48,857 bases of DNA from the UHGV virus genome UHGV-0138835; one strand, written 5' to 3'. Made by a program: the position numbers and the translations under genes. Source of the stretch: a virus. Below are positions 6,230-24,561 of this stretch, piece after piece. The notes under the pieces are model-generated. The model saw only the letters and a program-made list of their open reading frames with translations. It was not told the DNA's origin and ran no database searches. Each line of letters starts with the position of its first letter. Position 1 is the stretch's first letter.

Positions 6230-6438
6230 ATGATAAATCAAAAACAAAAACATAACATAACACATTGAATACAAATGAATTTTTCATTAAGTTATCCATT
6301 CAAAAGATAAGTAGGTAGCGCCATTTCTATCATTTCATATCGTGTCACATCGTCACCGTTTCACGTTGATTTCAAAAGAAATATTTATTCTATCGTGTCA
6401 TATCGCTCCCCATCGTGTTACTATCCATGCGTAAAATG

Positions 6439-6460
6439 TGTGTACCAAATAGTGACCAAA
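6439..6460 (+). repeat. 22-bp perfect direct repeat, copy 2; ends 2 nt before the int start codon
   Basis: Identical to 6208-6229. Confidence 0.5.
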
Positions 6461-6462
6461 TT

Positions 6463-7662
6463 ATGCTTACAGATACCAAATTACGAAACATTCACGGCAA
6501 GCCATACGACGGCCCGGAAGAAGTACCGGACGCTGGCGGATTGTCTGCCAGGATAAGCCCGCGAGGAGTTATATCTTTCCAGTATCGCTACCGATTCAAC
6601 GGCAAGCCTCGACGGATGAAGATCGGCACATACGGAGAAATAACACTCAAAGAAGCGCGCGCGGAGGTGGCGGCGCACAAAGAAGTATTAAACTCAGGTC
6701 GAGATCCATCGGTAGCAAAAAGAATGCACCTTTCTCGCGTTACGACACGGGCAACGGTTGAGGATATTGTCAGGGAGTACATGGAATCAACGCAGGCAAG
6801 GAGCATGGTCAACTATAAGCAGGTTGAAGCGATGTTGAATAAGCACGTCATCAGGCCATACGGTAGCTATATAGTCGATGATATGGACGCTATGATGTGG
6901 GAGGGAGTTTTTAGAAAGGTAGCTAATGGTGGTGCGCCAGTTCAGGCGGGAATAGTTCTCAACAGAATGAAAGCGGTAATAAAATACGCCATGCGCCGCC
7001 GCCGCGTGGATCGTGACGACATATCGTTACTACGCGTGAAAGACGTTGGTAAAAACCCAGCGCAAGGGAAGCGGGTTTTGTCAATACAAGAGATTCGCCA
7101 TCTAATCAGCCTTATAGACAGTTCAAAAATGGCGCGTCTAAATCAGATATTGATGAAACTGATTATATTCACCGGATGCAGGACAAGCGAGCTAACAAAC
7201 GCAAGGCGAGAACATTTCGATCTTGATAACTGCGTGTGGACTGTGCCTGGTGCATTGAGTAAGAACAGAAACGAGTTTAAACGCGGTTTATCCGACGTTA
7301 GCGTCGATTTATTGCGTGAGGCTATGGATCTGCATAGCTTTGATTTTGTCTTCGTTCCTGTGCTTTCTGGAAGGGATGAGGCGGTGGACAGAAGCGTACC
7401 GAAAACAGCGGCAAGGGATTTAATGATGAGGATGGGCGGCGAGCCGTGGTCGTGTCACGATCTACGCCGCACCGTGAGGACAAACCTTTCAGCGCTTGGC
7501 GTTGCGCCTCACGTCGCTGAAAAGGTTTTGGGGCATAAGCTGGCGGGGATGTTGGCTATATACGATCAGTATGACTATGTGAGGGAACAAATAGAGGCGA
7601 TGAATAAACTGGCTGATTATTACATGAAGCCCATTGATTTACAAAATGAAATAACGTCCTGA
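6463..7662 (+). CDS. int: tyrosine recombinase / phage integrase (P4-type)
   Basis: N-terminal arm-binding-like region (ARISPRGVISFQYRYRFNGKPRRMKIGTYGEITLKEARAE) and C-terminal catalytic region with HDLRRT...LGH; start taken at ATG 6463 (the track ORF begins at 6415). Confidence 0.85.
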   Translation: MLTDTKLRNIHGKPYDGPEEVPDAGGLSARISPRGVISFQYRYRFNGKPRRMKIGTYGEITLKEARAEVAAHKEVLNSGRDPSVAKRMHLSRVTTRATVEDIVREYMESTQARSMVNYKQVEAMLNKHVIRPYGSYIVDDMDAMMWEGVFRKVANGGAPVQAGIVLNRMKAVIKYAMRRRRVDRDDISLLRVKDVGKNPAQGKRVLSIQEIRHLISLIDSSKMARLNQILMKLIIFTGCRTSELTNARREHFDLDNCVWTVPGALSKNRNEFKRGLSDVSVDLLREAMDLHSFDFVFVPVLSGRDEAVDRSVPKTAARDLMMRMGGEPWSCHDLRRTVRTNLSALGVAPHVAEKVLGHKLAGMLAIYDQYDYVREQIEAMNKLADYYMKPIDLQNEITS

Positions 7663-8514: not shown

Positions 8515-8691
8515 TTACGCCACAGTTACATTGTCAACTTTGATAAAATATTCAGGATGATTTTCTATTTCGTTCTTGAAGTGCGCGTGACACAATCGCC
8601 ACTCCCGCGCCTGGTTGTGAAAATAGTAAACGTATTCGCCATCAATCTTGTATAAAATGCCTGTAGGTTTAGCCATGTAGTAACGAACCAT
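8515..8691 (-). CDS. hypothetical small protein
   Basis: Track ORF 8515-8745 trimmed to the internal ATG that overlaps the NinB stop by one base. Confidence 0.3.
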   Translation of the reverse strand: MVRYYMAKPTGILYKIDGEYVYYFHNQAREWRLCHAHFKNEIENHPEYFIKVDNVTVA

Positions 8692-9122
8692 TATTGCCCC
8701 CAGCGTTTTATAAATTCCTCGTTTAACTTCGTATCGCCAGACCACTGAACACCATGTTCAGCGCCGAACGAGTAGATCAGTTCGATTAATTCGCTAAATT
8801 CTGCTTTACCCATCCGGCTGGTTGACGTTCCCAGCACAACAAATCCTGATTTATCAAGATTAGGGACGACGCCATATTTTTTAAGCCCGGCAGTAAATAC
8901 CGCTTTCCAGTCTTCAGGTGACAGTTTTTTGCCGTACCAATTAACCTGATCGCTAATGTCGGTTAACAGCGCCCATAAAAGGCTATTTTGACTAAGCGAG
9001 CGGGTTTTCTCCTTGATGGTAATAATCAGCGGGCTTTTGCTATCAGGCTGGATTTCACTTATCTGCCTGATAGCGTTTTCTTTTACTGCGTCGTTTACTA
9101 TTTCAAATCTTATTTGCCTCAT
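8691..9122 (-). CDS. ninB: NinB recombination protein (lambda NinB/Orf family)
   Basis: Strong similarity to recalled lambda NinB (…RSLDQN..LWA.L.D.S.QV.W.G…VPNL…GFVV.G.STSRM…FSELIELI..FG…GV.WS). Confidence 0.85.
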   Translation of the reverse strand: MRQIRFEIVNDAVKENAIRQISEIQPDSKSPLIITIKEKTRSLSQNSLLWALLTDISDQVNWYGKKLSPEDWKAVFTAGLKKYGVVPNLDKSGFVVLGTSTSRMGKAEFSELIELIYSFGAEHGVQWSGDTKLNEEFIKRWGQ

Positions 9123-9837
9123 GGTTAGATAACGCCTCGTTTATTCTATTTGATGCAATTTCGAAATATTTTTCATCCTTTTCTATGCCGATAAAACGCC
9201 GATTAGTATTAATGCACGCAACGCCAGTAGTCCCGCTTCCCATGCAGTTATCAAGAACTAAATCACATTCGTTGGTATATGTTTTAATTAAATATTCCAT
9301 AAGCGCTACAGGCTTCTGTGTTGGGTGCAGCTTCACCCTATCTCGCGTAAACTCTAGTACCGTAACTGGATAGCGTTCGCCGCCACTCACCGTAGTTACA
9401 ATACCCGATGGATTGTAGTTAGATGTTTCCCCTCCTTTTTTACATTTATACGGCTTAAATCCCTCCCTCATTTGAGGGTTGTAAGTTGGCGGCTTATCAT
9501 AGAACACCAACACATTTTCATGATCCTTTAGCGGAGCGCGTTTAGCGTTCAGAAACCCTGTTCCAGCCTCTTTGCGCCAAATCCACTCATATCGAAGCAT
9601 ACCAAGATTGGACGCGCCTAAAACCTTGTCAAACGGCGTCTGGGCAGTCAGCACAATCGCCCCACAGCTTATGCGCTTGTATTCATCCCATAGAGACGGC
9701 AAATCAATAACGCTATCCCATTTGTTTCGCGTAGTCCCATACGGCAAATCACACAAAATCAAATTAATACTACAGTCTGGAATAGACTTCATAACCTCCA
9801 GGCAATCGCCTAACAATAATGCAATACCTTTACTCAT
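9103..9837 (-). CDS. DNA methyltransferase, beta-class N6-adenine/N4-cytosine (orphan)
   Basis: N-terminal motif IV DLPY (DPPY-like) and C-terminal motif I LDNCMGSGTTGVAC. Confidence 0.8.
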   Translation of the reverse strand: MSKGIALLLGDCLEVMKSIPDCSINLILCDLPYGTTRNKWDSVIDLPSLWDEYKRISCGAIVLTAQTPFDKVLGASNLGMLRYEWIWRKEAGTGFLNAKRAPLKDHENVLVFYDKPPTYNPQMREGFKPYKCKKGGETSNYNPSGIVTTVSGGERYPVTVLEFTRDRVKLHPTQKPVALMEYLIKTYTNECDLVLDNCMGSGTTGVACINTNRRFIGIEKDEKYFEIASNRINEALSNHEANKI

Positions 9838-9846
9838 GTTATAGCC

Positions 9847-10044
9847 TCATAATACACCGTTACTATTTTTCCACTGTGCCCGCGCATACATAATCGCCTG
9901 CAAAGAAATTAGCCGCGAGCTTGTCATGAAAGCGCCTTTTAAATATTTCATATCAACCGTGACAGGCTTATCAGGATCGTCGCCGCGCATGTATTCCGCA
10001 ATCGTGCTCAAATCCTCAACGGTTAAATCTAATTCCTTGTTCAT
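9847..10044 (-). CDS. hypothetical protein (65 aa)
   Basis: ORF in operon context. Confidence 0.3.
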   Translation of the reverse strand: MNKELDLTVEDLSTIAEYMRGDDPDKPVTVDMKYLKGAFMTSSRLISLQAIMYARAQWKNSNGVL

Positions 10045-10054
10045 GACTTACCCC

Positions 10055-10261
10055 TTACACAATCCGCATTGTGTTTCGTAATTCCCCGCGCAGCGCCTGC
10101 AAAGCGTAACGAATCGGCACAAAAGCCCGGTTAAATTTTACGTGCCTGTATTTGCGCATTAGTGGAGGCGTATAAACCATCGCGCCGCAAGAATTGCATG
10201 GAAATTTAAAGTGAGATTCATCAATGAATGTTTCAACTGAATAAAAAATTACACGTCTCAT
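10055..10261 (-). CDS. hypothetical protein (68 aa), Cys-containing
   Basis: ORF in operon context. Confidence 0.3.
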   Translation of the reverse strand: MRRVIFYSVETFIDESHFKFPCNSCGAMVYTPPLMRKYRHVKFNRAFVPIRYALQALRGELRNTMRIV

Positions 10262-10818
10262 AATTCCAACCCCGTTTCGCCGTTAAGTTTTTCGATCTCA
10301 AACACTGGTTTATCAGGAAGCAGGCCGTTATTTTTACGGTATTCGTTTAATAAGTTACTAAAATTAAATGCGACAACATTTGAATAACCATAAAAACGCG
10401 CGTTTCTGAAAAAATATTTACCGTCAAACTTATTAACGGTTAATAGATTCTCACTTCCTAACATCCGTAATATTCTGCCGACCTTTCCTTTGTTTATATT
10501 AATATTCAATTCATTCTTAACATCTTCCGCTGAAAAATACCCGCTGCTATTTGAAAACAAAGGGATTATATCCCTTATCGCCATTTCTCTTACTGACTTC
10601 AAGCAATATGATAATCTTTTACTATTTAGATCTACTTTTATAATAACGCCATCAGAAACCAAAGCATCCAAAGCGCAAATTATTTCACCTTCAGGTCCAG
10701 GAATAGATTTAACTATCGTTCCCTCACCTGAAATAACAGCGTCATTTAAAAAATCAATTATTTGTTGTTGGTATGAAGTTTTCATTTTCAGCCTCGCTTT
10801 AAACGCGATAACAGCCAC
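10258..10818 (-). CDS. hypothetical protein (186 aa) in a visibly AT-rich segment; possible acquired accessory gene
   Basis: Sequence is markedly AT-rich by eye compared with the flanking helicase and methyltransferase genes; no family recognised. Confidence 0.4.
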   Translation of the reverse strand: MAVIAFKARLKMKTSYQQQIIDFLNDAVISGEGTIVKSIPGPEGEIICALDALVSDGVIIKVDLNSKRLSYCLKSVREMAIRDIIPLFSNSSGYFSAEDVKNELNININKGKVGRILRMLGSENLLTVNKFDGKYFFRNARFYGYSNVVAFNFSNLLNEYRKNNGLLPDKPVFEIEKLNGETGLEL

Positions 10819-10861
10819 CAGAAAGCGGTAAACTTTCCGGTAAGCCGTTTGCTCATATTGA

Positions 10862-12277
10862 TTAAAAAGATGCGTTATTCTGATTGTTTCGTTGGCTAAA
10901 TCGGCTTGTACGATGATTCATGGACTGAATGCACGCGGCGGCGGCCTTACCCTGGTCGCATGGTAATATATTGCCGTTGTCATCAAACCGCTGGTAAATA
11001 GTACCAGTTTTCCCGTGACGGTTTTTAGATACAATTATTTCCATGTATTCGCGTGCTACAGACTGCTCATCGTAATAACCATCGCGGTAAACCATGATGA
11101 TCCTGTCAGCGTCTTGCTCAAGGTTCCCTGAATCTCGAAGATCTGAATTATTAGGGCGCTTGTTAGGTCGTTCCTCAACGCGGCGGGATAACTGGGCCAG
11201 CGCCAACACTGGTACACGCAATTCTTTCGCCATCATCTTCAACGACCATGACAATTGCCCTACAGCGAGATCGTGACGTTCGGCCTTAGCCAGCTTCATC
11301 AACCCGATGTAGTCAATCATTACCATACCCAGGTTGGGGTGTTCCTGTTTCATCCGTTCCGTGGTGGCGCGTATTTCCTCAACCGTTAACTGCGACGCGT
11401 CAACGATCCACACATCAAGATTAGCAAGTGCACTCATACCCTGGCCAACATGCGCCCACCCCTCATCATCAAGTTTTACCGGATTGCGCAGGCAGTCAGT
11501 TGATAAATTGCCAGCGCCAGCTATAGCGCGCTCAGTCATCTGATCGAGCGACATTTCAAGCGTGAATAACAAAACACCAACCCGCTGATCCTTGCTGCCA
11601 GGGTAAGGGCGCTCAGCAGCAGCGCGGGCAATCGCCAGCGCCAACGCAGATTTACCAGACCCAGGGCGTCCGGCGAGAAGTACCAAATCAGTGGCGTTAA
11701 TACCGCCTAACATTTCGTCGAGCGGTTCTATCCCTGTTTTGATGTTGTCAGAATTGACACCGCATTCCATGCGCTTGCTTAAAACCTCTGTGTATTCCTG
11801 TACCGCATCGCGCAACAGAACAGGGATAATCTTGTCTTTCGTTACCTTTAATTTTGAATACCGGGAATCAAAATCTTTCATCGTCTCTTTGACGACCTCA
11901 AGCGTACCCGTTTCCAGTTTGTAGCGCATATCGTCGATGAGTTCCAACATCTGACGCCGCTGGTGCTCTTCCCGTAGTAGCTGTGCGTACCCCTTCAGGT
12001 TGGCAGCAGAAGGACACGATCGCGCCGTTTGCATTAGCGGTACAAAGTTTTCGTTGCCAATCTCATCGCCAACCAATAACGCATCGATAAGATTCCTGTT
12101 TCTGGCTTGCGCCCTGATAATTTCAAACGCACGTTTATACAGCGGAATCGTGAACACTTCAGGATCAAGAGTGGCGAGAACATCTTGCGCGTTAGGAGTT
12201 AGGCCGCCTAACAGCAGCCCGCCGATAACTGACGCTTCACGTTCCTGCCGTAGTGAGTTTATTTGCTCAGTTACCAT
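10862..12277 (-). CDS. replicative DNA helicase, DnaB family
   Basis: N-terminal DnaB-like ERAVLGGLLL-type motif (EASVIGGLLLGG), Walker A GRPGSGKSA, length 471 aa. Confidence 0.85.
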   Translation of the reverse strand: MVTEQINSLRQEREASVIGGLLLGGLTPNAQDVLATLDPEVFTIPLYKRAFEIIRAQARNRNLIDALLVGDEIGNENFVPLMQTARSCPSAANLKGYAQLLREEHQRRQMLELIDDMRYKLETGTLEVVKETMKDFDSRYSKLKVTKDKIIPVLLRDAVQEYTEVLSKRMECGVNSDNIKTGIEPLDEMLGGINATDLVLLAGRPGSGKSALALAIARAAAERPYPGSKDQRVGVLLFTLEMSLDQMTERAIAGAGNLSTDCLRNPVKLDDEGWAHVGQGMSALANLDVWIVDASQLTVEEIRATTERMKQEHPNLGMVMIDYIGLMKLAKAERHDLAVGQLSWSLKMMAKELRVPVLALAQLSRRVEERPNKRPNNSDLRDSGNLEQDADRIIMVYRDGYYDEQSVAREYMEIIVSKNRHGKTGTIYQRFDDNGNILPCDQGKAAAACIQSMNHRTSRFSQRNNQNNASF

Positions 12278-12295
12278 TATGTTATTTCCTCCGGT

Positions 12296-13438
12296 TTACA
12301 AAATGGAATATTCAGGGTAATAAACAAAGCGCCCTATCTCACCATGATCCGGGCTGTAAATAATAACCGCCGCCAGGCGACGCGACCGCCATCCGCCATT
12401 AGTAGAATAAGCATCCTTACCGGCTAACGTGCCGTGATACTCAACAACGCCCAACGATGATTCAATCATCCGTTGATGATGCCAGTGCCCGCAGTGGGCG
12501 TAAACCGCCGCAGACTTCCCGAAATCATCGCGCCAGTCAGACACGCAAGCAGCCAATAAATTTTCCGGTTTTTTGATAGTGTGCCCGTGGTGGTAAGCAA
12601 GGAATGTTTTTCCGTACTGTGTGTGGTGGACGATGGCAGGGGACACATCAACCGTCACGCGCGGTTCATCTTCGTAAAAAGCCGCCAGCGACGCACGTAG
12701 CCATATCATTCCTGACTGGTCGTGATTGCCGGATAACACCTGTATTTCAACATCCTTATGATTTAATAACATCTTCCCTACCGCCCGCCGGACCGACCGG
12801 ATCGCTACATAAACAAGTTTTGCGTAGCGTGAATCGCAATCAAGTACGTGATTGCTTGATGGCGTAACTGGCAACAGACCGTCTGTGTGAAGAATATCCC
12901 CACCGAGAAGCAATACAGCTTTTTCAGACATCGGCGCAGCGCCTACAGCGTAGTCAAAGAAGTCATTCAACACGCGCTCAGCAATCCCAGTGTCGTAGCT
13001 CTCGCCGCATTCAGCTTTATGAGCAAGCGCCCCGATATGCAGATCAAATACCGGATAAAGGGCAAGGCTTTTTTGAAAATCAATTTCAGGCACTGGCACG
13101 GCCTCCGCGCGTGGTATTTCTTCCGTGAATGCGTCGCGGGCAGCTTCCATTACCTTTTCCATTTCATCGCGGTCACGGGCTGTTTTAATCCAGCGCATGA
13201 CTGTCTTCCCGTCTTTATCGACAAGAACAGATTCACCAGTAACGCCAAAACCCGGTGCGCGGCGCGTTGATAACAAACCGCGTTTCGCCAGCTTTGCGCC
13301 CAGACGCTCGACGTTGCGTTTTGACATGCAATATTTTTCAGCGATCTGTTTATACGTAAGACCGTTGTTATATTCAGCGATCAATTGCTCATCGCTGATT
13401 TTTCTTTGCGACATAATGTTAATTCCTCCAGTTAACAA
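12296..13438 (-). CDS. HTH domain fused to calcineurin-like metallophosphoesterase
   Basis: N-terminal HTH (LTYKQIAEKYCMSKRNVERL); phosphoesterase motifs DLH, GGDILHTDG, SGNHDQ, HHGH, GHWHH; start may be the internal ATG at 13414. Confidence 0.6.
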   Translation of the reverse strand: MLTGGINIMSQRKISDEQLIAEYNNGLTYKQIAEKYCMSKRNVERLGAKLAKRGLLSTRRAPGFGVTGESVLVDKDGKTVMRWIKTARDRDEMEKVMEAARDAFTEEIPRAEAVPVPEIDFQKSLALYPVFDLHIGALAHKAECGESYDTGIAERVLNDFFDYAVGAAPMSEKAVLLLGGDILHTDGLLPVTPSSNHVLDCDSRYAKLVYVAIRSVRRAVGKMLLNHKDVEIQVLSGNHDQSGMIWLRASLAAFYEDEPRVTVDVSPAIVHHTQYGKTFLAYHHGHTIKKPENLLAACVSDWRDDFGKSAAVYAHCGHWHHQRMIESSLGVVEYHGTLAGKDAYSTNGGWRSRRLAAVIIYSPDHGEIGRFVYYPEYSIL

Positions 13439-13447
13439 AATGTATAC

Positions 13448-14191
13448 CTACTTACACGCAAAAAGTTCAGATACCCAAAGCTGCCCCTTAGCGGTAAATA
13501 GTGATTGGACGTAACCTTCAGCCGAACATTTTACCACTCCATAGCCTTTTTCTACGAACCACTGTTTGAACATACGCCCACCGCGCTTAATTCGCGTATC
13601 GTACACGTCAACCTGTTCAAGTTTTTTGTTGAGTTGCGTAGCAGTCATACCCAAAGGCTTAGCGACCTGTGTAGCGTTGCGATGCTGTTCGTTTTTTGCA
13701 ATAGCATTATAAACAGCCGCTTTCGGTGCTAATTCCTTATTTTCCAGCGCCAGACGATCAACTTCTTTCTGTGCTAATAGTTTTTGCTCTACCTCATCCG
13801 CCCATGCGCGAGCAGCCGCAACCGGATCAGTGAAGTCCGGCAAAGCTGGTTTAAAACCGTAATGTCCATTTTCACGCAAAGCAGGGAGAACTTCTTCACA
13901 CACCCAATCCTGGAAGCGCTCAGCAAATTCTATTTTTGATCGCATCACAAGGCGGTACATATCTGATTCATGAATTAGCGTTACGCCTTGCGGTTTAGGG
14001 TCAAAACCCAAACACTGCATTTCACCGTATTTGATTTTAATCAATGACTTACAATGTTGTTTTAGAGCGTCCGCAGGTCTGATATACCCCAAAGCCCGCG
14101 CCACATCCATTGCAACAAAAGCAGGTTTACCATCATAAATTACAGCAGTGATTTTATTGTCATCAAAATTAAAACACATCAACTCAGACAT
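13448..14191 (-). CDS. antirepressor, Bro-N / KilA-C domain protein
   Basis: N-terminal Bro-N signature (FNFDDNKITAVIYDGKPAFVAMDVARALGY); start taken at ATG 14191 with GGGGAA SD. Confidence 0.7.
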   Translation of the reverse strand: MSELMCFNFDDNKITAVIYDGKPAFVAMDVARALGYIRPADALKQHCKSLIKIKYGEMQCLGFDPKPQGVTLIHESDMYRLVMRSKIEFAERFQDWVCEEVLPALRENGHYGFKPALPDFTDPVAAARAWADEVEQKLLAQKEVDRLALENKELAPKAAVYNAIAKNEQHRNATQVAKPLGMTATQLNKKLEQVDVYDTRIKRGGRMFKQWFVEKGYGVVKCSAEGYVQSLFTAKGQLWVSELFACK

Positions 14192-14323
14192 TGTAATTTC
14201 CCCGCAAAACGCTCTACAACGCAAAAATCCCACCGCGTAACACGTTCGCACATGTTGCAGTGTATTATTGCGCCAGAGGCGCTATCAGGTGGCTAATTTT
14301 TGATTTACAGACCGGTAGGTAGG

Positions 14324-14425
14324 TTATGGATTGACTAGAAGGAACAAACCGCCGAATAAGGCGACGTTAACAGCGATTGCCGCAGCGATGGCAAAAGCCA
14401 TGGCGAAAACGTGTTTACCGTCCAT
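14324..14425 (-). CDS. possible micro-ORF (33 aa), hydrophobic single-helix peptide MDGKHVFAMAFAIAAAIAVNVALFGGLFLLVNP
   Basis: Read by hand in the gap between the antirepressor and replication genes; weak SD. Confidence 0.25.
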   Translation of the reverse strand: MDGKHVFAMAFAIAAAIAVNVALFGGLFLLVNP

Positions 14426-14558
14426 TTTAAAATTCTCTCTGTAACGCTCTATAACGAGCTAATCGCAAAAAGGTAAGCAAGTATAGCACCACATGCGATT
14501 TATCTCGCTGGCGAGCTTGTTTTGCTGGTTATTTTGGGTTTTTGTGGATCGTGGTTAG

Positions 14559-15611
14559 TCAAAGAGCGCCAGCGCGTGTATCGCGTAGCGTTTTTGGTTT
14601 AAGCAGGAAATCAAGTGTCGCAGTGAAGCCATCGCCGAAGTAAAAATCTGAAGCCTTGTTTTTGAATGCTTCGAAGTAGGCGATAAAGCCGTTAATGCTT
14701 TTGTCTTTCAGGTAGTCAGTGAACGCATAGATCTTGCGTTCAAGATCCCGATCAAGTTCAGCAGGTGGCAACAGGCCGTCAAACGTGATGTTAAACTCTT
14801 CCACCACATCGGCAGCGTTTACAGTAGCTGATAGCTTGCGCCATTGTTCAGCGTCAGCCAGATACCCATCGAATTTAGTTACCCGGCAAATGTTAACAGG
14901 CTTAGGTGTTCCGCCACGGCTACGCCATTGCGTTAAAGCCCACTCAATCACTAATGTGATCTCATCCTCCGTATATGCTTTACGTGTTTTTGTTTCTGTC
15001 AGTAGTTCGATGAACGGTTTAGCATCACGACATTTACATCCTGCCTTGTCGTTGTAGAATGCCAGGCAACGCAATGCCGCTTCGTTTACGCCATCCTGAT
15101 TGAACATTTTTTGTTCATTTTCGACAATACACGAAGTGTATATATCTTTTTCTCTTTCTTTTTCTATTTCTAATTCTAATTCATGACCCTTTCCTGACCC
15201 GGTCATGACCCTATCATGACCTTTTTGTGTTGGATTGATTAACTTTTCTAATTTTAATTGCTCCTTCGCTGTGTTTATGGCGGCCCTGTAAGCGCTTTTA
15301 GAAGTCATTGATTGGTCCAGCCTTTTCAATAACTTTAAACAAGTTATGTGGCCTTGAGAACATTCAAACAAACCAATTTCGATGAAGTATTTCATCATTT
15401 CTTCTATACGTTTTTCAGTAGATCCGACGTTTCGCGCAATTATTCTTGCGTCATGTCGTAGGTCAAAAGTTAGATTGTGCTGATCTACGTCATAAGTTAT
15501 TAGTTCTAGGCAATACCAATAAAGCCCGTATCCTTCCAGTCCATAATCTAATAAAACGTTTTGAAGTTTTTCATCGCGGTTCGCATCGCTATCATGCTTA
15601 AACCACTTCAT
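14559..15611 (-). CDS. replication initiation protein (replisome-organizer-like N-terminal domain), contains internal iterons
   Basis: N-terminus MKWFKHDSDANRDEKL…GLEGYGLYWYCLE typical of phage replisome organizers; iterons in the linker region. Confidence 0.6.
   Translation of the reverse strand: MKWFKHDSDANRDEKLQNVLLDYGLEGYGLYWYCLELITYDVDQHNLTFDLRHDARIIARNVGSTEKRIEEMMKYFIEIGLFECSQGHITCLKLLKRLDQSMTSKSAYRAAINTAKEQLKLEKLINPTQKGHDRVMTGSGKGHELELEIEKEREKDIYTSCIVENEQKMFNQDGVNEAALRCLAFYNDKAGCKCRDAKPFIELLTETKTRKAYTEDEITLVIEWALTQWRSRGGTPKPVNICRVTKFDGYLADAEQWRKLSATVNAADVVEEFNITFDGLLPPAELDRDLERKIYAFTDYLKDKSINGFIAYFEAFKNKASDFYFGDGFTATLDFLLKPKTLRDTRAGAL
15138..15221. repeat. putative origin of replication: AT-rich tract plus four 9-bp iterons (TCATGACCC / TCCTGACCC) at exact 11-bp spacing
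   Basis: Iterons at 15181, 15192, 15203, 15214, immediately after the tract tatatatctttttctctttctttttctatttctaattctaat; located inside the initiator gene as in lambda O. Confidence 0.5.
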
Positions 15612-15614
15612 AGA

Positions 15615-15869
15615 TCATTCCTCCGGCAATGCAATGTCATAAATGTCGCCGTATTCGTCAGCGCGTTTAATGAATCCTTTGCGGATCAATGAATTTAATG
15701 CGTCAACAGTAGTATGCAGTGGTAGTTCGCACACTTTTGCGATCTCTTCGCGTGAAGCATGTGCGCGGCCTTTGTTGTCTGCCTTTTCTGCAAACGCAAT
15801 TAAGACAAGTTTTTGGATCGGGCTGTTAAGTTTTACGTTCCATACTTCATTCATCATGTGCATACTCAT
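15615..15869 (-). CDS. winged-helix HTH protein, first gene of the leftward early operon (Cro position)
   Basis: 84 aa, divergent from the repressor gene; HTH-like segment SREEIAKVCELPLHTTVDALNSLIRKGFI. Confidence 0.5.
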   Translation of the reverse strand: MSMHMMNEVWNVKLNSPIQKLVLIAFAEKADNKGRAHASREEIAKVCELPLHTTVDALNSLIRKGFIKRADEYGDIYDIALPEE

Positions 15870-16174: not shown

Positions 16175-16822
16175 ATGAAAACAAAATGGTATGACTTAGC
16201 AAAGCAGCTCATGCGGGCGCAGGGCATGAGTCAGGATTCATTGGCTGATCTCATGGGGATAACCAAAGGTGGCCTTTCGCACTGGCTGAACGGTCGCCGT
16301 GAGCCAAATCTTGAAGATATTGCGCGGATCATGCGGGCGCTTGGGCGTCGGCAGTTTACTGTCACACATGACGGGATGGTTATCGATGATTCTGTTTCTA
16401 ACACGTTACCGGGAGCGCCACCGCGTGATTTAGGCAGTTACCCGGTTGTTGACTGGAAGGATGTAGCAAACAATATGGAAGGCACATGCCGATCAACATT
16501 GCCACACATTACTACTAGCGTTATTTGTTCGGATGATAGTTATTGGCTGGTTGCTAAAGGTGAATCAATGAACGCACCGCAGGGGTTAAGCATCCCGGCG
16601 GGGACTATGATACTCGTTGACCCGCACGCGCCAGCTATTGACGGAAAACTTGTTATAGCACAACTGGAGGAAGGGCAGATACCTACGTTTAAACAGTTGA
16701 TTATTGATGGAGGCCGAAAACTTTTGCGTTCACTGAATCCGTTGTATCCGCCGATCCCTATGAATCCAGAGTCAAAAATCATTGGCGTGGTTGTTGATGC
16801 GAAGATCGTAAACCTGCCATAA
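16175..16822 (+). CDS. CI-type repressor (HTH_XRE + LexA-like S24 peptidase domain), P22 C2-like
   Basis: C-terminal domain closely matches recalled P22 C2 (GSYP…SEDS.WL…G.SM.AP.GLSIP.G..ILVDP……GKLV.A.LE…..TFK.L..D.GRK.L..LNP.YP.I…….KIIGVVVDAK..NLP). Confidence 0.9.
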   Translation: MKTKWYDLAKQLMRAQGMSQDSLADLMGITKGGLSHWLNGRREPNLEDIARIMRALGRRQFTVTHDGMVIDDSVSNTLPGAPPRDLGSYPVVDWKDVANNMEGTCRSTLPHITTSVICSDDSYWLVAKGESMNAPQGLSIPAGTMILVDPHAPAIDGKLVIAQLEEGQIPTFKQLIIDGGRKLLRSLNPLYPPIPMNPESKIIGVVVDAKIVNLP

Positions 16823-16827
16823 ACATT

Positions 16828-16853
16828 AGCCGCCTGGTGGCGGCTTTTCTTTG
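16828..16853 (+). terminator. rho-independent terminator after repressor gene
   Basis: agccgcc-tggt-ggcggct hairpin followed by TTTCTTTGTT. Confidence 0.6.
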
Positions 16854-16946
16854 TTCGAAAAAACACCAAAACGTAAACAGAAAACGCTATTTATTGTTTA
16901 AATATCAATAGTATATAAAATATTTTAAAAAAGTATACAAAATGGA

Positions 16947-16975
16947 TTGACTCGATGTTATACGGGGAGTATATT
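16947..16975 (+). promoter_or_regulatory. candidate sigma70 early promoter (pL-like): -35 TTGACT, 17-bp spacer, -10 TATATT
   Basis: Hexamers and spacer read directly; upstream of the nut site and the N-like gene. Confidence 0.5.
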
Positions 16976-17016
16976 GCGAGTCAAAGGAGGCAGCAAGGCA
17001 GGGAAGGAAGGTTACT

Positions 17017-17054
17017 TGCTCTTTAATAATCTGGTCAGCCGCTGGAAGTGCGGC
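17017..17054 (+). promoter_or_regulatory. candidate nut site: boxA-like TGCTCTTTAA plus boxB hairpin GCCGC-UGGAAGU-GCGGC
   Basis: boxA 17017-17026 resembles the recalled rrn/lambda boxA; 11-nt spacer; boxB stem-loop 17038-17054. Confidence 0.5.
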
Positions 17055-17110
17055 AATTAACGAAGATGATTTTTTATTAAGTTTCATCAAGGATATACGG
17101 AGATCAGATT

Positions 17111-17401
17111 ATGAGCGTTACAATTATGTATGGAAAATGTGATAGCAAAATGAACGCCAGGGAACGCAGAAGGATAAAAAGAGAAAACGAAAGAAAATCA
17201 TCACCTGCAATTAATAAAACAGACAATGTGGATAAAGCTATTCGATTTGCAAACGAGGAAAGGTGCAAACCAAATAGCATTAAAGAACGTCGCAAAGGAT
17301 CAGTAAAATGGTATACGGAAAATGAAAGCGGCAGCTACTACCACGCAACGCAACCACGCCATTTAGGGGAGAAACCCCTGGATAAAGTCCGTTACCATTA
17401 A
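17111..17401 (+). CDS. N-like transcription antitermination protein (P22 gene 24-like)
   Basis: N-terminus MSVTIMYGKCDSKMNARERRRIKRENERK resembles recalled P22 gp24 (MTVITYGKS…AKTRRHERRRKLA) with an arginine-rich motif; first gene after promoter and nut. Confidence 0.6.
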   Translation: MSVTIMYGKCDSKMNARERRRIKRENERKSSPAINKTDNVDKAIRFANEERCKPNSIKERRKGSVKWYTENESGSYYHATQPRHLGEKPLDKVRYH

Positions 17402-17550
17402 TACAAAATGTAAACATTCGGAGGTTACATTATGGTTATCGAGGCGCTTCAATTCAAACTGACAGTAGCGGAAATGCTTCATGATGCCGAAATGTGGAGC
17501 GCCGCGAATAAAGCCTTATACATAGTGTTAACAGCGAAGGAGATTAAAGA

Positions 17551-18192
17551 GTGAAAACAGAGTTACACAAAAAACTGTGGACGATTCAGCAAACGCTGAA
17601 CGCGCCGAAAAATCAGCGTAATAATTTCGGCGGATACAATTACAGGTCGGCGGAGGATATTTTAGAAGCGGTCAAACCACTGCTTCAAAGTATTACGCTG
17701 ACTGTAAGCGATGAAATTGTCCTGATCGGCAATCGCTATTATGTGAAAGCCACTGCGACACTAAGCGACGGTGAGGATGAAATAGCGGTAACTGCTTACG
17801 CCAGGGAGGAAGAAAGCAAGAAGGGAATGGACGCAAGCCAGTTAACTGGCGCGACATCAAGTTACGCGCGTAAATACGCGTTGAACGGATTGTTCTGTAT
17901 TGACGATGCGCGTGATCCTGATACTGATGCATACGCCAAGCAGACAGGCCAGCAGCCTCGCCAACAGAAAAACCCACCAAAACAACAACCACAGCAGCAG
18001 AAGGCGCCGCCAAATCCTGACGAAGTGTTAGCGCGTTTCTGTGATGCAGCAGCGAAAGCGCCGGACGCTAACAAGTTACGCGAGATCTTCGGCAAGTGCT
18101 GGAAGCTATTGCCTAAGGATTCAGAACAACAACAGAAAGCGAAAGACGTTTATGACATTCGCTTGAAAGAGCTTAACGGGGAGATCGGTTAA
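17551..18192 (+). CDS. erf: Erf single-strand annealing recombinase
   Basis: Strong match to recalled P22 Erf (…LNAPKNQ.N.FG.Y.YRS.EDILE.VKPLL……SDEIVLIG.RYYVKATAT..DGE………AREEE.KKGMDA.Q.TGATSSYARKY.LNGLF.IDDA.D.DT); GTG start with AAGGAG SD. Confidence 0.9.
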   Translation: MKTELHKKLWTIQQTLNAPKNQRNNFGGYNYRSAEDILEAVKPLLQSITLTVSDEIVLIGNRYYVKATATLSDGEDEIAVTAYAREEESKKGMDASQLTGATSSYARKYALNGLFCIDDARDPDTDAYAKQTGQQPRQQKNPPKQQPQQQKAPPNPDEVLARFCDAAAKAPDANKLREIFGKCWKLLPKDSEQQQKAKDVYDIRLKELNGEIG

Positions 18193-18605
18193 TGAGCGTA
18201 AACTCAATCACACTTGGTGGTAACGTTGGCAACGATCTAGAAGTGCGCTACACGCCTAGCGGGAAAGCAATCGGTAGCTTCTCGTTGGCTGTTCAACAGG
18301 GCTACGGTGATAACAAACGTGCAATGTGGGTGACGTGCCTGATATTCGGTGAGCGTGCGGAAAAATTAGCGCCACATATCCGTAAGGGGACGAAGCTGGT
18401 TGTAAGTGGTCGTCTGGACGTTCGCCAGTACGATCGGAACGATGGCACGAAGGGGACGGCGGTCGAAGTAGCGGTTAATGACTTTGAGTTCATGGCAGGA
18501 GGTCAGCAGCAGGGCCAGCAGCAGGGCCAGCGCCAGCCACCGCAACAGAATCAAGGCGGCGGCAATCAACCTCCGATGGACTTCGATGATGATATTCCTT
18601 TTTGA
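18192..18605 (+). CDS. ssb: single-stranded DNA-binding protein
   Basis: OB-fold-like N-terminus, Gly/Gln-rich linker and acidic C-terminal tail DFDDDIPF. Confidence 0.85.
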   Translation: MSVNSITLGGNVGNDLEVRYTPSGKAIGSFSLAVQQGYGDNKRAMWVTCLIFGERAEKLAPHIRKGTKLVVSGRLDVRQYDRNDGTKGTAVEVAVNDFEFMAGGQQQGQQQGQRQPPQQNQGGGNQPPMDFDDDIPF

Positions 18606-18618
18606 TTCAATAGGTTAG

Positions 18619-18900
18619 GTGATGGGTTGTTATTTAAAAGCACCGCCACCGCCGCGAACAAAAGAGCAAGTATTGAAAGAAGCCCGTGATCAAATTGATC
18701 GCGGGTTTTTTATTGCTGGTAGTTCGGCTGAACGGATGGCGAAAAGATTTAGTGACCTGTACGCAAAACAAATATGGTTCGACAACTGGCAGGCAAGTTT
18801 TTACCCACCGCAAAGAAAACCGGATATGCACTGGCCTGAATATGTCGATCCACGCATGCGCAAATATCGCGGGCGTATGGGCCAGGTTATTAACGATTAA
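18619..18900 (+). CDS. hypothetical protein (93 aa)
   Basis: ORF in tightly packed + strand operon. Confidence 0.35.
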   Translation: MMGCYLKAPPPPRTKEQVLKEARDQIDRGFFIAGSSAERMAKRFSDLYAKQIWFDNWQASFYPPQRKPDMHWPEYVDPRMRKYRGRMGQVIND

Positions 18901-18914
18901 TGAGGTATTAAATC

Positions 18915-19139
18915 ATGATCGAAGATAAAGAAGTTGACAATGAAATTCCTGACGGCGCTGATGAACTTATTACTTTCGGTGGCGGGCTGTACGAGTTTGA
19001 AACGTCGGCAGGGTGGATCGATAAGTGGCCTTTTCCAACTCGACAGGAATTAAGCGAACGTAAATCATTTGGCGAAGATGCCGAACGGCTGGCTAATAAC
19101 AAATGGCTTGATAAGTTCATTGCGGAGGGTGGCAAATGA
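18915..19139 (+). CDS. hypothetical protein (74 aa)
   Basis: ORF in operon. Confidence 0.35.
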   Translation: MIEDKEVDNEIPDGADELITFGGGLYEFETSAGWIDKWPFPTRQELSERKSFGEDAERLANNKWLDKFIAEGGK

Positions 19140-19249
19140 ATCTTGCAAAAATTGCCGCATTGCTTGCGGCTTTATCTATCGCCGTGCTGTATCTCAGCGT
19201 GTCGCTTTATATCACGGTAGCGATCATTAAACTCATTACTAACATGTGA
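19136..19249 (+). CDS. micro-ORF (37 aa), hydrophobic membrane peptide MNLAKIAALLAALSIAVLYLSVSLYITVAIIKLITNM
   Basis: ATGA overlap with the upstream gene, SD GGAGGGTGG; below ORF-track cutoff. Confidence 0.35.
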   Translation: MNLAKIAALLAALSIAVLYLSVSLYITVAIIKLITNM

Positions 19250-19257
19250 GGCCAATC

Positions 19258-19377
19258 ATGAAAGTCGGTAAGGATATTGTGACTGTCGCGTTTTGCATTA
19301 TTTGCTTCCTGTTTGTGGTTGTTTCTTGTGGCGCATTTGCTGCGTTGGTTAGCTTTATTTTTAGAGGGTTGCCGTGA
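19258..19377 (+). CDS. micro-ORF (39 aa), hydrophobic membrane peptide MKVGKDIVTVAFCIICFLFVVVSCGAFAALVSFIFRGLP
   Basis: ATG 19258; its stop overlaps the start of the next gene (GTGATGA). Confidence 0.35.
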   Translation: MKVGKDIVTVAFCIICFLFVVVSCGAFAALVSFIFRGLP

Positions 19378-19646
19378 TGAAAACATGGGATGCAAAGGCT
19401 GGTGATCTTGTTGTGTTGCCTGAATATCGTGATGACCCTGGCCTGGTTGTACTGAATAAGGGGAGCTACGATCAGCGCCCGTTACTGGTTAAATATCTTG
19501 ACGGAACAATCATAGAGCCGCGTTTCTTTGACAATATTGAACTGAAGGCCCGCAATGTTCGCGTTAAGCCGTTCCGGGCTTATGTTGAAGACCACTGGCG
19601 GAAATTGTTCGCCGGACTGAATGGGATGTTTGGCGTATGGCTATAA
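19377..19646 (+). CDS. hypothetical protein (89 aa)
   Basis: ORF in operon. Confidence 0.35.
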   Translation: MKTWDAKAGDLVVLPEYRDDPGLVVLNKGSYDQRPLLVKYLDGTIIEPRFFDNIELKARNVRVKPFRAYVEDHWRKLFAGLNGMFGVWL

Positions 19647-19828
19647 AATTAGTGAAAGTTAAAGACCTGAAAGGCGGCGAAAAGATCCGCACGTGGTATG
19701 GCTATAAATTTATTGTCGCTGCCTTTTCTTTCGGGCCAGGGGGTCAAGTAACATTATTTGATGAAGAAGACGACGAGGTGGGTAAATGGCATCTTGAACA
19801 ATATGTTGAGGTGTTAAATGAAAATTAA
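19637..19828 (+). CDS. hypothetical protein (63 aa)
   Basis: ORF in operon. Confidence 0.3.
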   Translation: MAIKLVKVKDLKGGEKIRTWYGYKFIVAAFSFGPGGQVTLFDEEDDEVGKWHLEQYVEVLNEN

Positions 19829-20150
19829 ATTACATAAAGCGTATGATAGCCAGACAAACAAGCTATCACTATTTATTGAGTTCGAACGCCGGATCGTGTG
19901 TGTACCGTGGGCGCGGCGCTTTAATGATGCAGCAGGGCGGCGGCAGTTCGCGTTAGACATGTTGTTACGCGGTTGCGGCCTTATGCGCCCGCTATCTGAT
20001 TTAAAACGGATGATGCCTGGATCGTTCGGTCAGATTGATGAGATTGAAATAAGCCAGGAAGAACTAAAACGGGCGCGTGATTTATTCCTTTCAAGTGAAG
20101 GAAACCCGTTTAATCAAGAAACTGAAATGAAATGGCATCACCCACTATAA
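19818..20150 (+). CDS. hypothetical protein (110 aa)
   Basis: ORF in operon. Confidence 0.35.
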   Translation: MKIKLHKAYDSQTNKLSLFIEFERRIVCVPWARRFNDAAGRRQFALDMLLRGCGLMRPLSDLKRMMPGSFGQIDEIEISQEELKRARDLFLSSEGNPFNQETEMKWHHPL

Positions 20151-20163
20151 AAGGATGAACATC

Positions 20164-20784
20164 ATGAACGACATCAAAACAGCTTATTCACTTGGCAGCA
20201 ATGGCATGTTAATCACTCGCTACACTGAAGACGCAAGTTTTCATGAAGTGGAAACGAAGGATTATCACGAAGTATTAAAAGATATGGAAGCTGGCAAGTA
20301 TGACGCTGATTTGAATCTGGCGTTACAGATTGTTGATATTGTGATGGATGCGTCGATCCGCGATTATGTGTCTTTAAATGCTGAAGAAAAAACGGCTGTA
20401 GCTCGTTATGTCTTCTGCCTTACTTTCGTAAAACGAATGGAAGAAGAATTTGGACGAGTACCAGTGCCGGAAGAAATTGACCCGCTGGCGTTCGGAAGTG
20501 CTGTTATTTTCCCGTTAGATGAAAATCATATGGGTAGCGTTGCGCTGTATTCTATGCGCGGCGTAATGAAAGAAATATTCGAGGCTAAAGCGTTACAGAA
20601 GTGTATTGATGAAGGGCACAAAGAGGAAGACGTAAAGGCGATCATGCCATTGTTTTACGGCGAAATGGTTGGAAATAATATGCGTGCAAATGATTTAGGT
20701 ATACAGGCGGCTATAGCTGTGCTTAATGATGTACGGAAAAACGTGCAGCCAATGCCTGAACCTGAAAAGCGCGTACTTCATTAA
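20164..20784 (+). CDS. hypothetical protein (~206 aa)
   Basis: ORF; start moved to second ATG with better SD spacing. Confidence 0.4.
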   Translation: MNDIKTAYSLGSNGMLITRYTEDASFHEVETKDYHEVLKDMEAGKYDADLNLALQIVDIVMDASIRDYVSLNAEEKTAVARYVFCLTFVKRMEEEFGRVPVPEEIDPLAFGSAVIFPLDENHMGSVALYSMRGVMKEIFEAKALQKCIDEGHKEEDVKAIMPLFYGEMVGNNMRANDLGIQAAIAVLNDVRKNVQPMPEPEKRVLH

Positions 20785-20883
20785 CGTTGTGGTTGCGATC
20801 GCATAAATATACGTTTTGTGTTGCGATCGCAAATCCGTTTTGTGAACTGAAATCAAAAGGTTTACGGCGCGGAGGAAAACAAG

Positions 20884-21102: not shown

Positions 21103-21200
21103 TTATGGACGACACATTGTTTTATATGTGCTGTTGCTGGGGTTTTATTGCCTTATGCCTGTTTATCAGGTGGTTTATTGAATACCATATGAGGTGATAT

Positions 21201-21588: not shown

Positions 21589-21589
21589 A

Positions 21590-22064: not shown

Positions 22065-22073
22065 GGGGGCGTA

Positions 22074-24547: not shown

Positions 24548-24561
24548 TCGGGGTGGTTTTT

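What the first reader, a model, noticed from the sequence alone, without database searches (positions are those of the whole stretch)
12296..13438. HTH-metallophosphoesterase fusion protein embedded in the replication module
The protein combines an N-terminal HTH with a complete set of calcineurin-like phosphoesterase motifs (DxH, GDxxH, GNHD, H, GHxH). It lies between the DnaB-like helicase and the antirepressor. Such enzymes can be nucleases (Mre11/SbcD-like) or phosphodiesterases; a cyclic-nucleotide phosphodiesterase would be an anti-signalling (anti-CBASS/Pycsar-type) candidate, but that is speculation.
Basis: partly seen in the sequence, partly recalled or inferred. Interest (0 to 1): 0.55.

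Follow-up and report, generated by a model that had tools for sequence, protein, structure and literature searches.

The report
Phage HTH-tethered metallophosphoesterase, probable DNA nuclease
The gene is real and encodes a DNA-binding domain joined to an intact two-metal phosphoesterase, but it belongs to a very large, already catalogued and never tested phage family that most resembles DNA nucleases, and nothing found here supports an anti-signalling role.

Summary
The ORF on the minus strand encodes an N-terminal helix-turn-helix (HTH), a short hairpin/helix linker and a complete calcineurin-like metallophosphoesterase (MPE) core. The true start is the ATG at 13414, giving 372 aa rather than 380. 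All metal-binding residues are invariant in 69 homologs down to 28% identity. dN/dS is about 0.07.

It is not a one-off fusion. It matches PHROG 704 ("DNA repair exonuclease") at 1e-136. Homologs occur in 2,045 phage records and 4,278 protein clusters, and the gene is core in Drexlerviridae. I found no experimental study of the family.

"Embedded in the replication module" is true only for this mEp021-like lineage, where the gene sits next to dnaB in 37/37 loci. The antirepressor is an incidental insertion (10/37). In other lineages the gene usually lies just upstream of lysis or terminase genes.

Best reading: a stand-alone, DNA-tethered Mn-dependent nuclease acting in phage DNA metabolism (confidence about 0.55). 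The anti-CBASS/Pycsar idea has no positive support (about 0.07). It is an ordinary but uncharacterised core phage enzyme.

The parts
12296..13414 (-). Coding sequence of the HTH-metallophosphoesterase: 372 aa plus stop, starting at the ATG at 13414.
   Evidence: Close homologs are 372 aa. PHROG 704 matches at 1e-136. dN/dS is 0.072.
13423..13429 (-). Ribosome-binding site GGAGGAA, 8 nt upstream of the ATG.
   Evidence: A near-identical site (GGAGGAA) precedes dnaB.
13283..13393 (-). N-terminal three-helix HTH domain (aa 8-44), sigma-70 region 4 / LuxR-like.
   Evidence: Weak Pfam hits. Weak match to the DevR/LuxR C-terminal domain. Model helices 8-16, 21-27 and 32-44 with pLDDT above 90. Strong HTH hits in homologs. 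dN/dS is 0.076.
13124..13243 (-). Beta-hairpin plus helix (aa 58-97) between the HTH and the catalytic core. It contains the nearly invariant W75. The conserved part of the family starts here.
   Evidence: Model. Conservation. Match starts at about residue 50-65.
12320..13075 (-). Calcineurin-like metallophosphoesterase core (aa 114-365).
13037..13045 (-). Motif I, D124-L-H126 (metal ligands).
   Evidence: Invariant in 69 sequences. Coordinates checked.
12887..12901 (-). Motif II, G172-D173-I-L-H176 (bridging Asp; His176 in 98% of sequences).
12827..12865 (-). Family-specific conserved loop T184...L191-D192-x-D194-x-R196, between motifs II and III. Candidate substrate-binding element (inference).
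   Evidence: T184 is invariant; L191, D192, D194 and R196 are at 92-98%. Modelled confidently only with the deep alignment.
12719..12730 (-). Motif III, G229-N230-H231-D232.
   Evidence: N230 and H231 are invariant.
12581..12589 (-). Motif IV, H276-G277-H278.
   Evidence: H276 and G277 are invariant.
12479..12490 (-). Motif V, G309-H310-W-H312.
   Evidence: G309 and H312 are invariant; H310 is at 95%.
10862..12277 (-). Context: DnaB-like replicative helicase, 18 nt downstream in the same operon. This is the conserved neighbour in this lineage.
   Evidence: Pfam DnaB_C 6.9e-76. Adjacent in 37/37 mEp021-like loci, with an 18-nt gap in 33.
13448..14251 (-). Context: Bro-N/KilAC antirepressor immediately upstream. 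It is an incidental insertion, not a functional partner.
   Evidence: Present in only 10/37 related loci. Absent in MagusPhagus and replaced by a zinc-ribbon protein in mEp021.

Best explanation
The gene encodes a stand-alone, catalytically competent two-metal phosphodiesterase of the calcineurin-like superfamily, carried on an N-terminal HTH DNA-binding domain.

The most likely mechanism has four steps:
1. The HTH places the enzyme on DNA.
2. The binuclear (probably Mn2+) centre is formed by D124, H126, D173, N230, H276, H310 and H312, with H231 as the catalytic histidine.
3. That centre hydrolyses DNA phosphodiester bonds as an exo- and/or endonuclease, as in Mre11, SbcD and PolD DP1, but without a Rad50/SbcC partner or a capping domain.
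4. In this mEp021-like temperate phage the gene is expressed from the early operon together with the replication initiator and DnaB. There it would process DNA ends or replication/recombination intermediates, or degrade host DNA.

Shown here: the gene is real and under selection; the domain architecture; the intact active site; the fold and its nearest structural neighbours; the operon position; the absence of a partner ATPase; core-gene behaviour.

Inferred: that the substrate is DNA, that the HTH binds DNA, and the biological role.
For: Full-length match to PHROG 704 'DNA repair exonuclease' at 1e-136.

All metal ligands are invariant in 69 sequences down to 28% identity, so catalysis is selected.

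An HTH is conserved across the family, although its Pfam type varies. It is under purifying selection (dN/dS 0.076).

The gene behaves as a core gene. It is present with dnaB in 37/37 mEp021-like loci and in all 7 mEp-type phage records. It is persistent in 508/522 Drexlerviridae (PMC13164509).

The phage has an Erf annealase, SSB, Abc2, NinB and NinG but no dedicated recombination exonuclease.

The only phage stand-alone MPEs studied experimentally behave as nucleases tied to replication. Bxb1 gp47 has weak exonuclease activity and is required for DNA replication (PMC11795197). A10ZJ24 Gp48 has Mn-dependent phosphodiesterase and DNase activity (PMC12287305).
Against: No member of this family has been tested biochemically or genetically, as far as could find.

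Profile comparisons show no specific sequence relationship to SbcD (2.7%), CpdA (7%) or Bxb1 gp47 (8.4%).

Gene position is not consistently in replication modules across lineages. It is often next to lysis or terminase genes, and once sits inside a head module, so the biological role may not be replication.

The name 'DNA repair exonuclease' is a pipeline label, not evidence.
Confidence: 0.55

Rival explanations
1. Anti-signalling phosphodiesterase: the MPE domain degrades cyclic mono-, di- or oligonucleotide second messengers of CBASS, Pycsar, Thoeris or type III CRISPR.
For: The fold is compatible. Cyclic-nucleotide and other small-molecule phosphodiesterases are within 2-3 Z units of the top hits (MJ0936 14.0, Rv0805 12.5, GpdQ 12.3). 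The active site is intact.
Against: There is no similarity to any PADLOC model. No calcineurin-like anti-CBASS phage enzyme appears in the searched literature. The conserved HTH has no obvious use for a small-molecule hydrolase. The gene is core, syntenic and under strong purifying selection rather than variable like typical counter-defence genes (PMC13164509). The top structural neighbours are nucleases.
Confidence: 0.07
2. Nucleic-acid end-healing or nucleotide-pool enzyme: a 2',3'-cyclic phosphodiesterase/3'-phosphatase acting on broken RNA or DNA ends, or a hydrolase of nucleotides, working with neighbouring nucleotide-metabolism genes.
For: Recurrent neighbours in several branches include DUF3310 'nucleotide kinase'-like proteins and dATP/dGTP pyrophosphohydrolase-like proteins. 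In some Drexlerviridae the next genes look, on my reading of the sequences, like a HAD-type phosphatase and a dNMP kinase; PMC13164509 calls them polynucleotide kinase and dNMP kinase. MPE domains perform end-healing in bacterial Pnkp (my own knowledge, not tested here).
Confidence: 0.12
3. Primarily a DNA-bound regulatory or assembly factor, for example a helicase-loading accessory for DnaB, a late-gene regulator placed before lysis/packaging genes, or a moonlighting cofactor like Bxb1 gp47. Catalysis would be secondary.
For: The gene is invariably adjacent to dnaB in this lineage, and no recognisable helicase loader is present. In many other phages it lies directly upstream of TerS/TerL or the lysis cassette, a position often held by late regulators (my own knowledge). 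The HTH type varies between lineages, as expected for sequence-specific binding. Bxb1 gp47 is a precedent for moonlighting.
Against: Every metal ligand and the catalytic His are invariant across the family, so the chemistry itself is under selection. T1-like phages that carry the gene have no DnaB-type helicase.
Confidence: 0.1
4. Ser/Thr/Tyr protein phosphatase like lambda NinI.
For: It belongs to the same superfamily, and lambdoid phages carry such an enzyme in the nin region (my own knowledge).
Confidence: 0.03

Closest known systems
PHROG 704 / the 'DNA repair exonuclease' (putative phosphoesterase) core gene of Drexlerviridae, Jerseyvirus, Webervirus and many Vibrio phages
   Same: Full-length homology (1e-136; 55-65% identity to T1-like phage proteins). 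Same HTH + linker + MPE architecture, same invariant residues, similar length of 370-400 aa.
   Different: Here the gene sits in a temperate mEp021-like phage between the replication initiator and dnaB. In Drexlerviridae it sits upstream of the holin (PMC13164509). The family name is a homology-derived label; no function has been shown.
Mre11 / SbcD nucleases
   Different: No C-terminal capping domain: the protein ends with the core. It has an N-terminal HTH instead. No Rad50/SbcC partner is encoded in the window. There is no profile-level sequence similarity to E. coli SbcD (2.7%).
PolD small subunit DP1 (3'-5' proofreading exonuclease) and eukaryotic polymerase B-subunits
   Different: No OB-fold domain and no cognate polymerase. 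This phage encodes no DNA polymerase among the genes examined. Identity is only 13%.
Mycobacteriophage cluster A metallophosphoesterases (Bxb1 gp47, L5 gp54, A10ZJ24 Gp48)
   Different: They are about 255 aa with no HTH. Motif I in Bxb1 gp47 reads D-T-Q rather than DxH. The sequence relationship is not robust: hhalign gives 67% with the shallow profile and 8.4% with the deep one. gp47 also serves as a serine-integrase directionality factor, whereas this phage has a tyrosine integrase.
Class III cyclic-nucleotide phosphodiesterases (CpdA, Rv0805/Icc)
   Different: They rank lower than the nucleases. There is no profile similarity to E. coli CpdA (7%). They have no HTH.

Membership tests
Calcineurin-like metallophosphoesterase superfamily | Five motifs supplying the binuclear metal site: DxH, GDxx(D/H), GNH(D/E), H, GHxH. 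| tested here: met
   DLH, GDILH, GNHD, HGH and GHWH are at the checked coordinates. They are invariant or at least 95% conserved in 69 homologs.
Calcineurin-like metallophosphoesterase superfamily | Beta-alpha-beta-alpha-beta sandwich fold, with the ligands at the C-terminal ends of the strands. | tested here: met
Calcineurin-like metallophosphoesterase superfamily | Match to the Pfam Metallophos (PF00149) or Metallophos_2 model. | tested here: not met
   No hit for this protein even at E<=0.1. Among 69 homologs, 17 and 11 hit these models (best E 2.7e-5). The family is too divergent for the Pfam models, so membership rests on motifs and fold.
PHROG 704 ('DNA repair exonuclease') | Full-length match to the family profile. 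| tested here: met
   E 1e-136, residues 12-376 of the 380-aa ORF against profile positions 2-387 of 390.
Mre11/SbcD nuclease | Sequence-profile similarity to SbcD/Mre11. | tested here: not met
   hhalign of A2 against E. coli SbcD gives probability 2.7%, aligning only the GNHD motif. No PDB sequence hit.
Mre11/SbcD nuclease | C-terminal capping domain following the phosphoesterase core. | tested here: not met
   The core ends at about residue 365 of 372. The extra domain is an N-terminal HTH.
Mre11/SbcD nuclease | Partner Rad50/SbcC-type ATPase encoded alongside. | tested here: not met
   The neighbours are Ant and DnaB. All large ORFs in the window are tail or packaging proteins. No recurrent ATPase neighbour appears in 232 loci.
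Mre11/SbcD nuclease | Mn2+-dependent exo/endonuclease activity on DNA. | not testable with these tools
   Requires biochemistry.
PolD DP1 / polymerase B-subunit | OB-fold domain plus association with a cognate polymerase catalytic subunit. | tested here: not met
   The model has no OB fold. No DNA polymerase is found among the annotated window genes.
Class III cyclic-nucleotide phosphodiesterase (CpdA/Rv0805) | Specific sequence or structure similarity beyond the generic MPE core. | tested here: not met
Class III cyclic-nucleotide phosphodiesterase (CpdA/Rv0805) | Hydrolysis of cyclic nucleotides. | not testable with these tools
   Requires biochemistry.
Mycobacteriophage gp47/Gp48-type MPE | Specific sequence relationship. 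| tested here: inconclusive
   hhalign gives 67% (E 5e-5) with the 20-sequence profile but 8.4% with the 69-sequence profile.
Lambda NinI / PPP protein phosphatases | GDxHG, GDxVDRG and GNHE motifs. | tested here: not met
Known anti-defence or defence proteins (PADLOC models) | Profile match. | tested here: not met
   The only match is a chance-level hit of the HTH region (E 0.047).

The most novel reading that the evidence does not exclude
The enzyme is not a nuclease but a counter-defence phosphodiesterase that destroys nucleotide second messengers of CBASS, Pycsar, Thoeris or type III CRISPR. That would make PHROG 704, a core gene of T1-like, Jersey-like and mEp021-like phages, a very widespread and unrecognised anti-signalling family. 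The fold and intact active site do not exclude this. The conserved HTH, core-gene behaviour, purifying selection and nuclease-like structural neighbours all argue against it.
Probability: 0.07. Interest if true: 0.75.

Novelty: new member of a known kind. Interest (0 to 1): 0.3.

Why it matters
By itself this is one more copy of a catalogued phage gene. PGAP calls it 'hypothetical protein' and Pharokka-style pipelines call it 'DNA repair exonuclease'.

The wider point is that a protein conserved in thousands of phage genomes has never been tested. It is core in Drexlerviridae, which includes many therapeutic and laboratory-contaminant phages, and its name is only a homology guess.

Finding out what it cuts would fill a real annotation gap. 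It would also clarify how phages without an Mre11-Rad50 pair process DNA. The candidates are phage replication or recombination intermediates, host DNA, or something else. The mEp021-like phages and the BASEL T1-like phages are tractable E. coli systems for that experiment.

Tried and rejected
- Sequence libraries: Pfam, NCBIfam and PADLOC scans gave nothing for the catalytic domain.
- PDB by sequence: searches with the single protein and with a profile found only chance-level HTH hits.
- Link to Bxb1 gp47: an apparent relationship (hhalign 67%) did not survive a broader profile (8.4%), and I do not rely on it.
- Profile comparisons with E. coli SbcD and CpdA were both insignificant, so sequence cannot separate nuclease from phosphodiesterase.
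- BFVD returned only uncharacterised phage MPEs.
- Conserved partner gene: a search across 232 loci from four divergent branches found none. It found only a positional tendency towards lysis and terminase genes, and recurrent HNH endonucleases.
- Virion protein: this was raised by one branch where the gene lies in the head module. The mEp021 virion proteome reports 16 proteins, and the two encoded outside the structural cluster both lie upstream of the lysis region, not in the replication region.
- Literature: searches for escape mutants or defence interactions involving this family found nothing. The Metis and PUA-Cal-HAD papers concern T-even denA, not this gene.
- The search for related loci with the 69-sequence alignment failed for lack of a conserved peptide stretch.
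- Savinov et al. 2012 could not be read. It is cited only through PMC11795197.

Full report

An ORF runs from 13438 to 12296 on the minus strand. The TTG at 13438 is only the most upstream possible start. A strong ribosome-binding site, GGAGGAA at 13423-13429, lies 8 nt before the ATG at 13414. Most close homologs are 372 aa. The CDS is therefore 12296-13414.

- DLH, aa 124-126
- GDILH, aa 172-176
- GNHD, aa 229-232
- HGH, aa 276-278
- GHWH, aa 309-312

In 20 homologs of 58-95% identity every one is invariant. In 69 homologs reaching 28% identity, these residues remain invariant: D124, H126, G172, D173, N230, H231, H276, G277, G309 and H312. H176, D232 and H310 are at least 95% conserved.

Against 36 mEp021-like relatives, dN/dS is 0.072 for the whole gene. 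It is 0.076 for the HTH and 0.045 for the catalytic core. The gene is real, expressed as a protein, and both domains are constrained.

The neighbours are as stated. A DnaB-type helicase lies downstream (Pfam DnaB_C 6.9e-76). A Bro-N/KilAC antirepressor lies upstream.

**2. What is it?**

This protein gives no Pfam Metallophos hit, no NCBIfam hit, no PADLOC hit and no PDB sequence hit for the catalytic part. It does match PHROG 704 ("DNA repair exonuclease") over its full length at 1e-136.

The family is very large:
- tblastn finds homologs in 2,045 of 50,697 phage records. These include Escherichia, Klebsiella, Salmonella and Vibrio phages, with T1-like Drexlerviridae, Webervirus and Jerseyvirus among them.
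- An exhaustive phmmer search finds 4,278 cluster representatives at E<=1e-3, of which 907 are at E<=1e-30. Nearly all are 370-420 aa.
- A 2026 pangenome study lists the gene as persistent in 508 of 522 Drexlerviridae, directly upstream of the lysis cassette (PMC13164509).

The two-domain architecture is the family norm. Among 69 diverse members, 17 reach Pfam Metallophos on their own. Most carry a recognisable N-terminal HTH, though of varying Pfam type: Sigma70_r4_2, LysR-type, Fis-type, HTH_23/28 and LuxR/GerE.

**3. Structure**

A first AlphaFold model from 20 sequences was mediocre (pLDDT 75). A model from the 69-sequence alignment is confident (pLDDT 91.6, pTM 0.78). It shows:
- a three-helix HTH, residues 8-44;
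- a flexible loop;
- a beta-hairpin plus helix, residues 58-97, where family-wide conservation begins (W75 is nearly invariant);
- a beta-alpha-beta sandwich core, residues 114-365, in which each motif follows a strand, as in canonical metallophosphoesterases.

This leans towards DNA nucleases but is not decisive.

Sequence profiles do not help. hhalign of the family against E. coli SbcD, E. coli CpdA and Bxb1 gp47 gives probabilities of 2.7%, 7.0% and 8.4%. An earlier 67% for gp47 with the shallow profile was not robust. The family is its own deep branch of the superfamily.

It also has a distinctive conserved loop, T184...L191-D192-x-D194-x-R196, between motifs II and III.

**4. Surroundings**

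The window is about 91% identical to the mEp021-like ("mEpimmI") temperate coliphages (PMC11893012).

On the minus strand the early operon reads, in order of transcription:
- 84-aa HTH_36 protein
- O-like initiator
- Ant
- the MPE gene
- DnaB
- MarR-like protein
- small ORFs
- DNA methyltransferase
- NinB

The plus strand carries the repressor, then an N-like antiterminator, Erf, SSB, Abc2 (anti-RecBCD), a second methyltransferase, an HNH endonuclease, NinG/Rap and a Q-like antiterminator.

So this phage has a P22-style recombination set without a dedicated exonuclease. All large ORFs are tail or packaging proteins, so no SbcC/Rad50-like ATPase is present.

Among 37 mEp021-like viral loci, the MPE gene and dnaB are adjacent in all 37, with an 18-nt gap in 33. 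A homolog of this Ant is present in only 10. The interval between the initiator and the MPE gene varies from about 300 to 1,600 bp. MagusPhagus has small ORFs there, and mEp021 has a 495-aa zinc-ribbon protein. The antirepressor is an incidental insertion.

**5. Context across the family**

I collected 236 viral loci from four divergent branches. I called ORFs, located the MPE gene in 232 loci with an HMM, and clustered the neighbours. ORF calling and labelling were crude, so the counts below are lower bounds.

No partner gene is universal. The recurrent neighbours, confirmed against PHROGs, are endolysin, terminase small and large subunits, HNH endonuclease, small DUF3310 "nucleotide kinase"-like proteins, dATP/dGTP pyrophosphohydrolase-like proteins and VRR-NUC.

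In at least 18 of 38 groups defined at 80% identity, lysis or terminase genes lie within five genes downstream on the same strand. Terminase accounts for 9 of these, sometimes as a direct MPE-TerS-TerL run.

Annotated genomes agree:
- upstream of the holin in a BASEL Drexlerviridae phage;
- in a small island with an HNH endonuclease between tail genes in Jerseyvirus wksl3;
- before an HNH endonuclease, an endolysin and head genes in a Vibrio phage;
- after the lysis cassette in a Rhodobacter phage.

In one branch the gene lies between MuF-like and scaffold genes.

"Embedded in the replication module" therefore describes this lineage only. The general pattern is a self-contained gene at the boundary between DNA-metabolism genes and late genes.

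**6. Mechanism**

The invariance of every metal ligand and of the catalytic histidine shows that phosphoester hydrolysis is the selected activity.

DNA is the most likely substrate, for four reasons:
- the conserved DNA-binding-type domain;
- the nuclease-dominated structural neighbours;
- core-gene behaviour;
- the experimental precedents among stand-alone phage metallophosphoesterases.

Those precedents are Bxb1 gp47 and A10ZJ24 Gp48. [quoted passage not shown] A10ZJ24 Gp48 has Mn-dependent phosphodiesterase and DNase activity that damages host DNA (PMC12287305).

I therefore favour an HTH-tethered, Mn-dependent DNA exo/endonuclease that works without a Rad50-like partner (confidence about 0.55). 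It would act on replication or recombination intermediates or on host DNA. Which of these is the true role cannot be decided here.

Rival readings:
- end-healing or nucleotide-pool enzyme, about 0.12;
- mainly regulatory or assembly factor, about 0.10;
- anti-signalling phosphodiesterase, about 0.07;
- protein phosphatase, about 0.03.

**7. The anti-defence speculation**

Nothing positive supports it. There is no PADLOC similarity and no relevant literature. In Stokar-Avihail et al., SECphi18 carries a homolog, but its escape mutations map elsewhere.

The gene's behaviour is also unlike typical counter-defence genes. It is core, syntenic and has a low dN/dS. The fold alone cannot exclude the idea, so I leave it at about 7%.

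**8. Novelty and verdict**

This is a new member of a known, catalogued but experimentally untested family. In databases the gene is "hypothetical protein" in mEp021/mEp554 and in 35 of 5,426 complete E. coli genomes. Elsewhere it is "DNA repair exonuclease" or "metallophosphoesterase".

Interest is modest (0.3). The finding is correct but ordinary. Its value lies in pointing to a very widespread core phage enzyme whose function nobody has measured.

Noticed in passing
window 12278-12295 (MPE-dnaB junction); L245:2845-3348 (mEp021_10); L004:6172-6672; L005:6208-6717: HNH (PHROG 99, AP2-type) homing-endonuclease genes recur immediately beside the MPE gene in unrelated phages. In mEp021 one lies between the MPE gene and dnaB. 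Three of 37 mEp-like loci have a 540-551-nt insert at that junction. Jerseyvirus wksl3 gp48 and a Vibrio phage gene lie in the same position. This fits the MPE gene being a conserved homing target. It may also explain its 65% identity between temperate mEp021-like and virulent T1-like phages.
   Followed up: partly
window 13448-14558: The interval between the O-like initiator and the MPE gene is an insertion hot spot. It holds an antirepressor here (10/37 related loci), a 495-aa zinc-ribbon protein in mEp021 and tiny ORFs in MagusPhagus. A 308-bp non-coding stretch (14252-14558) with a terminator-like hairpin at 14348-14365 precedes the Ant gene.
   Followed up: partly
window 16175-26472 (+) versus 8691-15869 (-): The layout is unlike lambda. 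The repressor, N-like antiterminator, Erf, SSB, Abc2 anti-RecBCD, a methyltransferase, an HNH endonuclease, NinG/Rap and the Q-like antiterminator all read in one direction. The replication genes and NinB read the other way, towards the integrase (6415-7662).
   Followed up: no
window 10258-12277: The phage encodes its own DnaB-type helicase, but no recognisable helicase loader was found. The next gene (10258-10818, 186 aa) has only weak MarR/winged-helix similarity.
   Followed up: no
window 14559-15869: The replication initiator appears split. An 84-aa HTH_36 protein (15615-15869) and a 350-aa Lin1244_N/O-like protein (14559-15611) are separated by 3 nt. Each matches a different part of phage replication-initiation families.
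   Followed up: no
window 12366-12386 (-): A GC-rich hairpin followed by a T-rich tract (terminator-like) lies inside the 3' part of the MPE coding sequence. It encodes the conserved RRLAAVIIY segment, so it is probably a by-product of coding rather than a terminator.
   Followed up: no
L092:5001-5969 and L095 (viral contigs): In one divergent branch the MPE gene lies inside the head-morphogenesis module, in the order TerL, portal, MuF-like, MPE, scaffold, major capsid. This hints at a late or even virion-associated role there. The published mEp021 virion proteome does not report the homolog.
   Followed up: partly
phage records MG065667.1, MG065675.1, MG065638.1; protein P0051: Records named 'Campylobacter phage A127/A118/A15a' and 'Streptococcus phage MBBL140' carry homologs 64-65% identical to this E. 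coli gene, at the same level as T1-like coliphages. The host labels look doubtful.
   Followed up: no
window 9103-9837 and 22074-22613: The window carries two separate DNA methyltransferase genes, one on each early operon, plus a free-standing HNH endonuclease at 23584-24111.
   Followed up: no
L083, L086 (Drexlerviridae-type viral contigs), genes +1 and +2 after the MPE gene: In a subset of T1-like phages the MPE gene is followed by a HAD-type phosphatase-like gene and a dNMP-kinase-like gene before the holin. I identified these by eye from their motifs. In other branches DUF3310 and dATP/dGTP pyrophosphohydrolase-like genes are adjacent. This is a weak link to nucleotide metabolism or end-healing.
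   Followed up: partly
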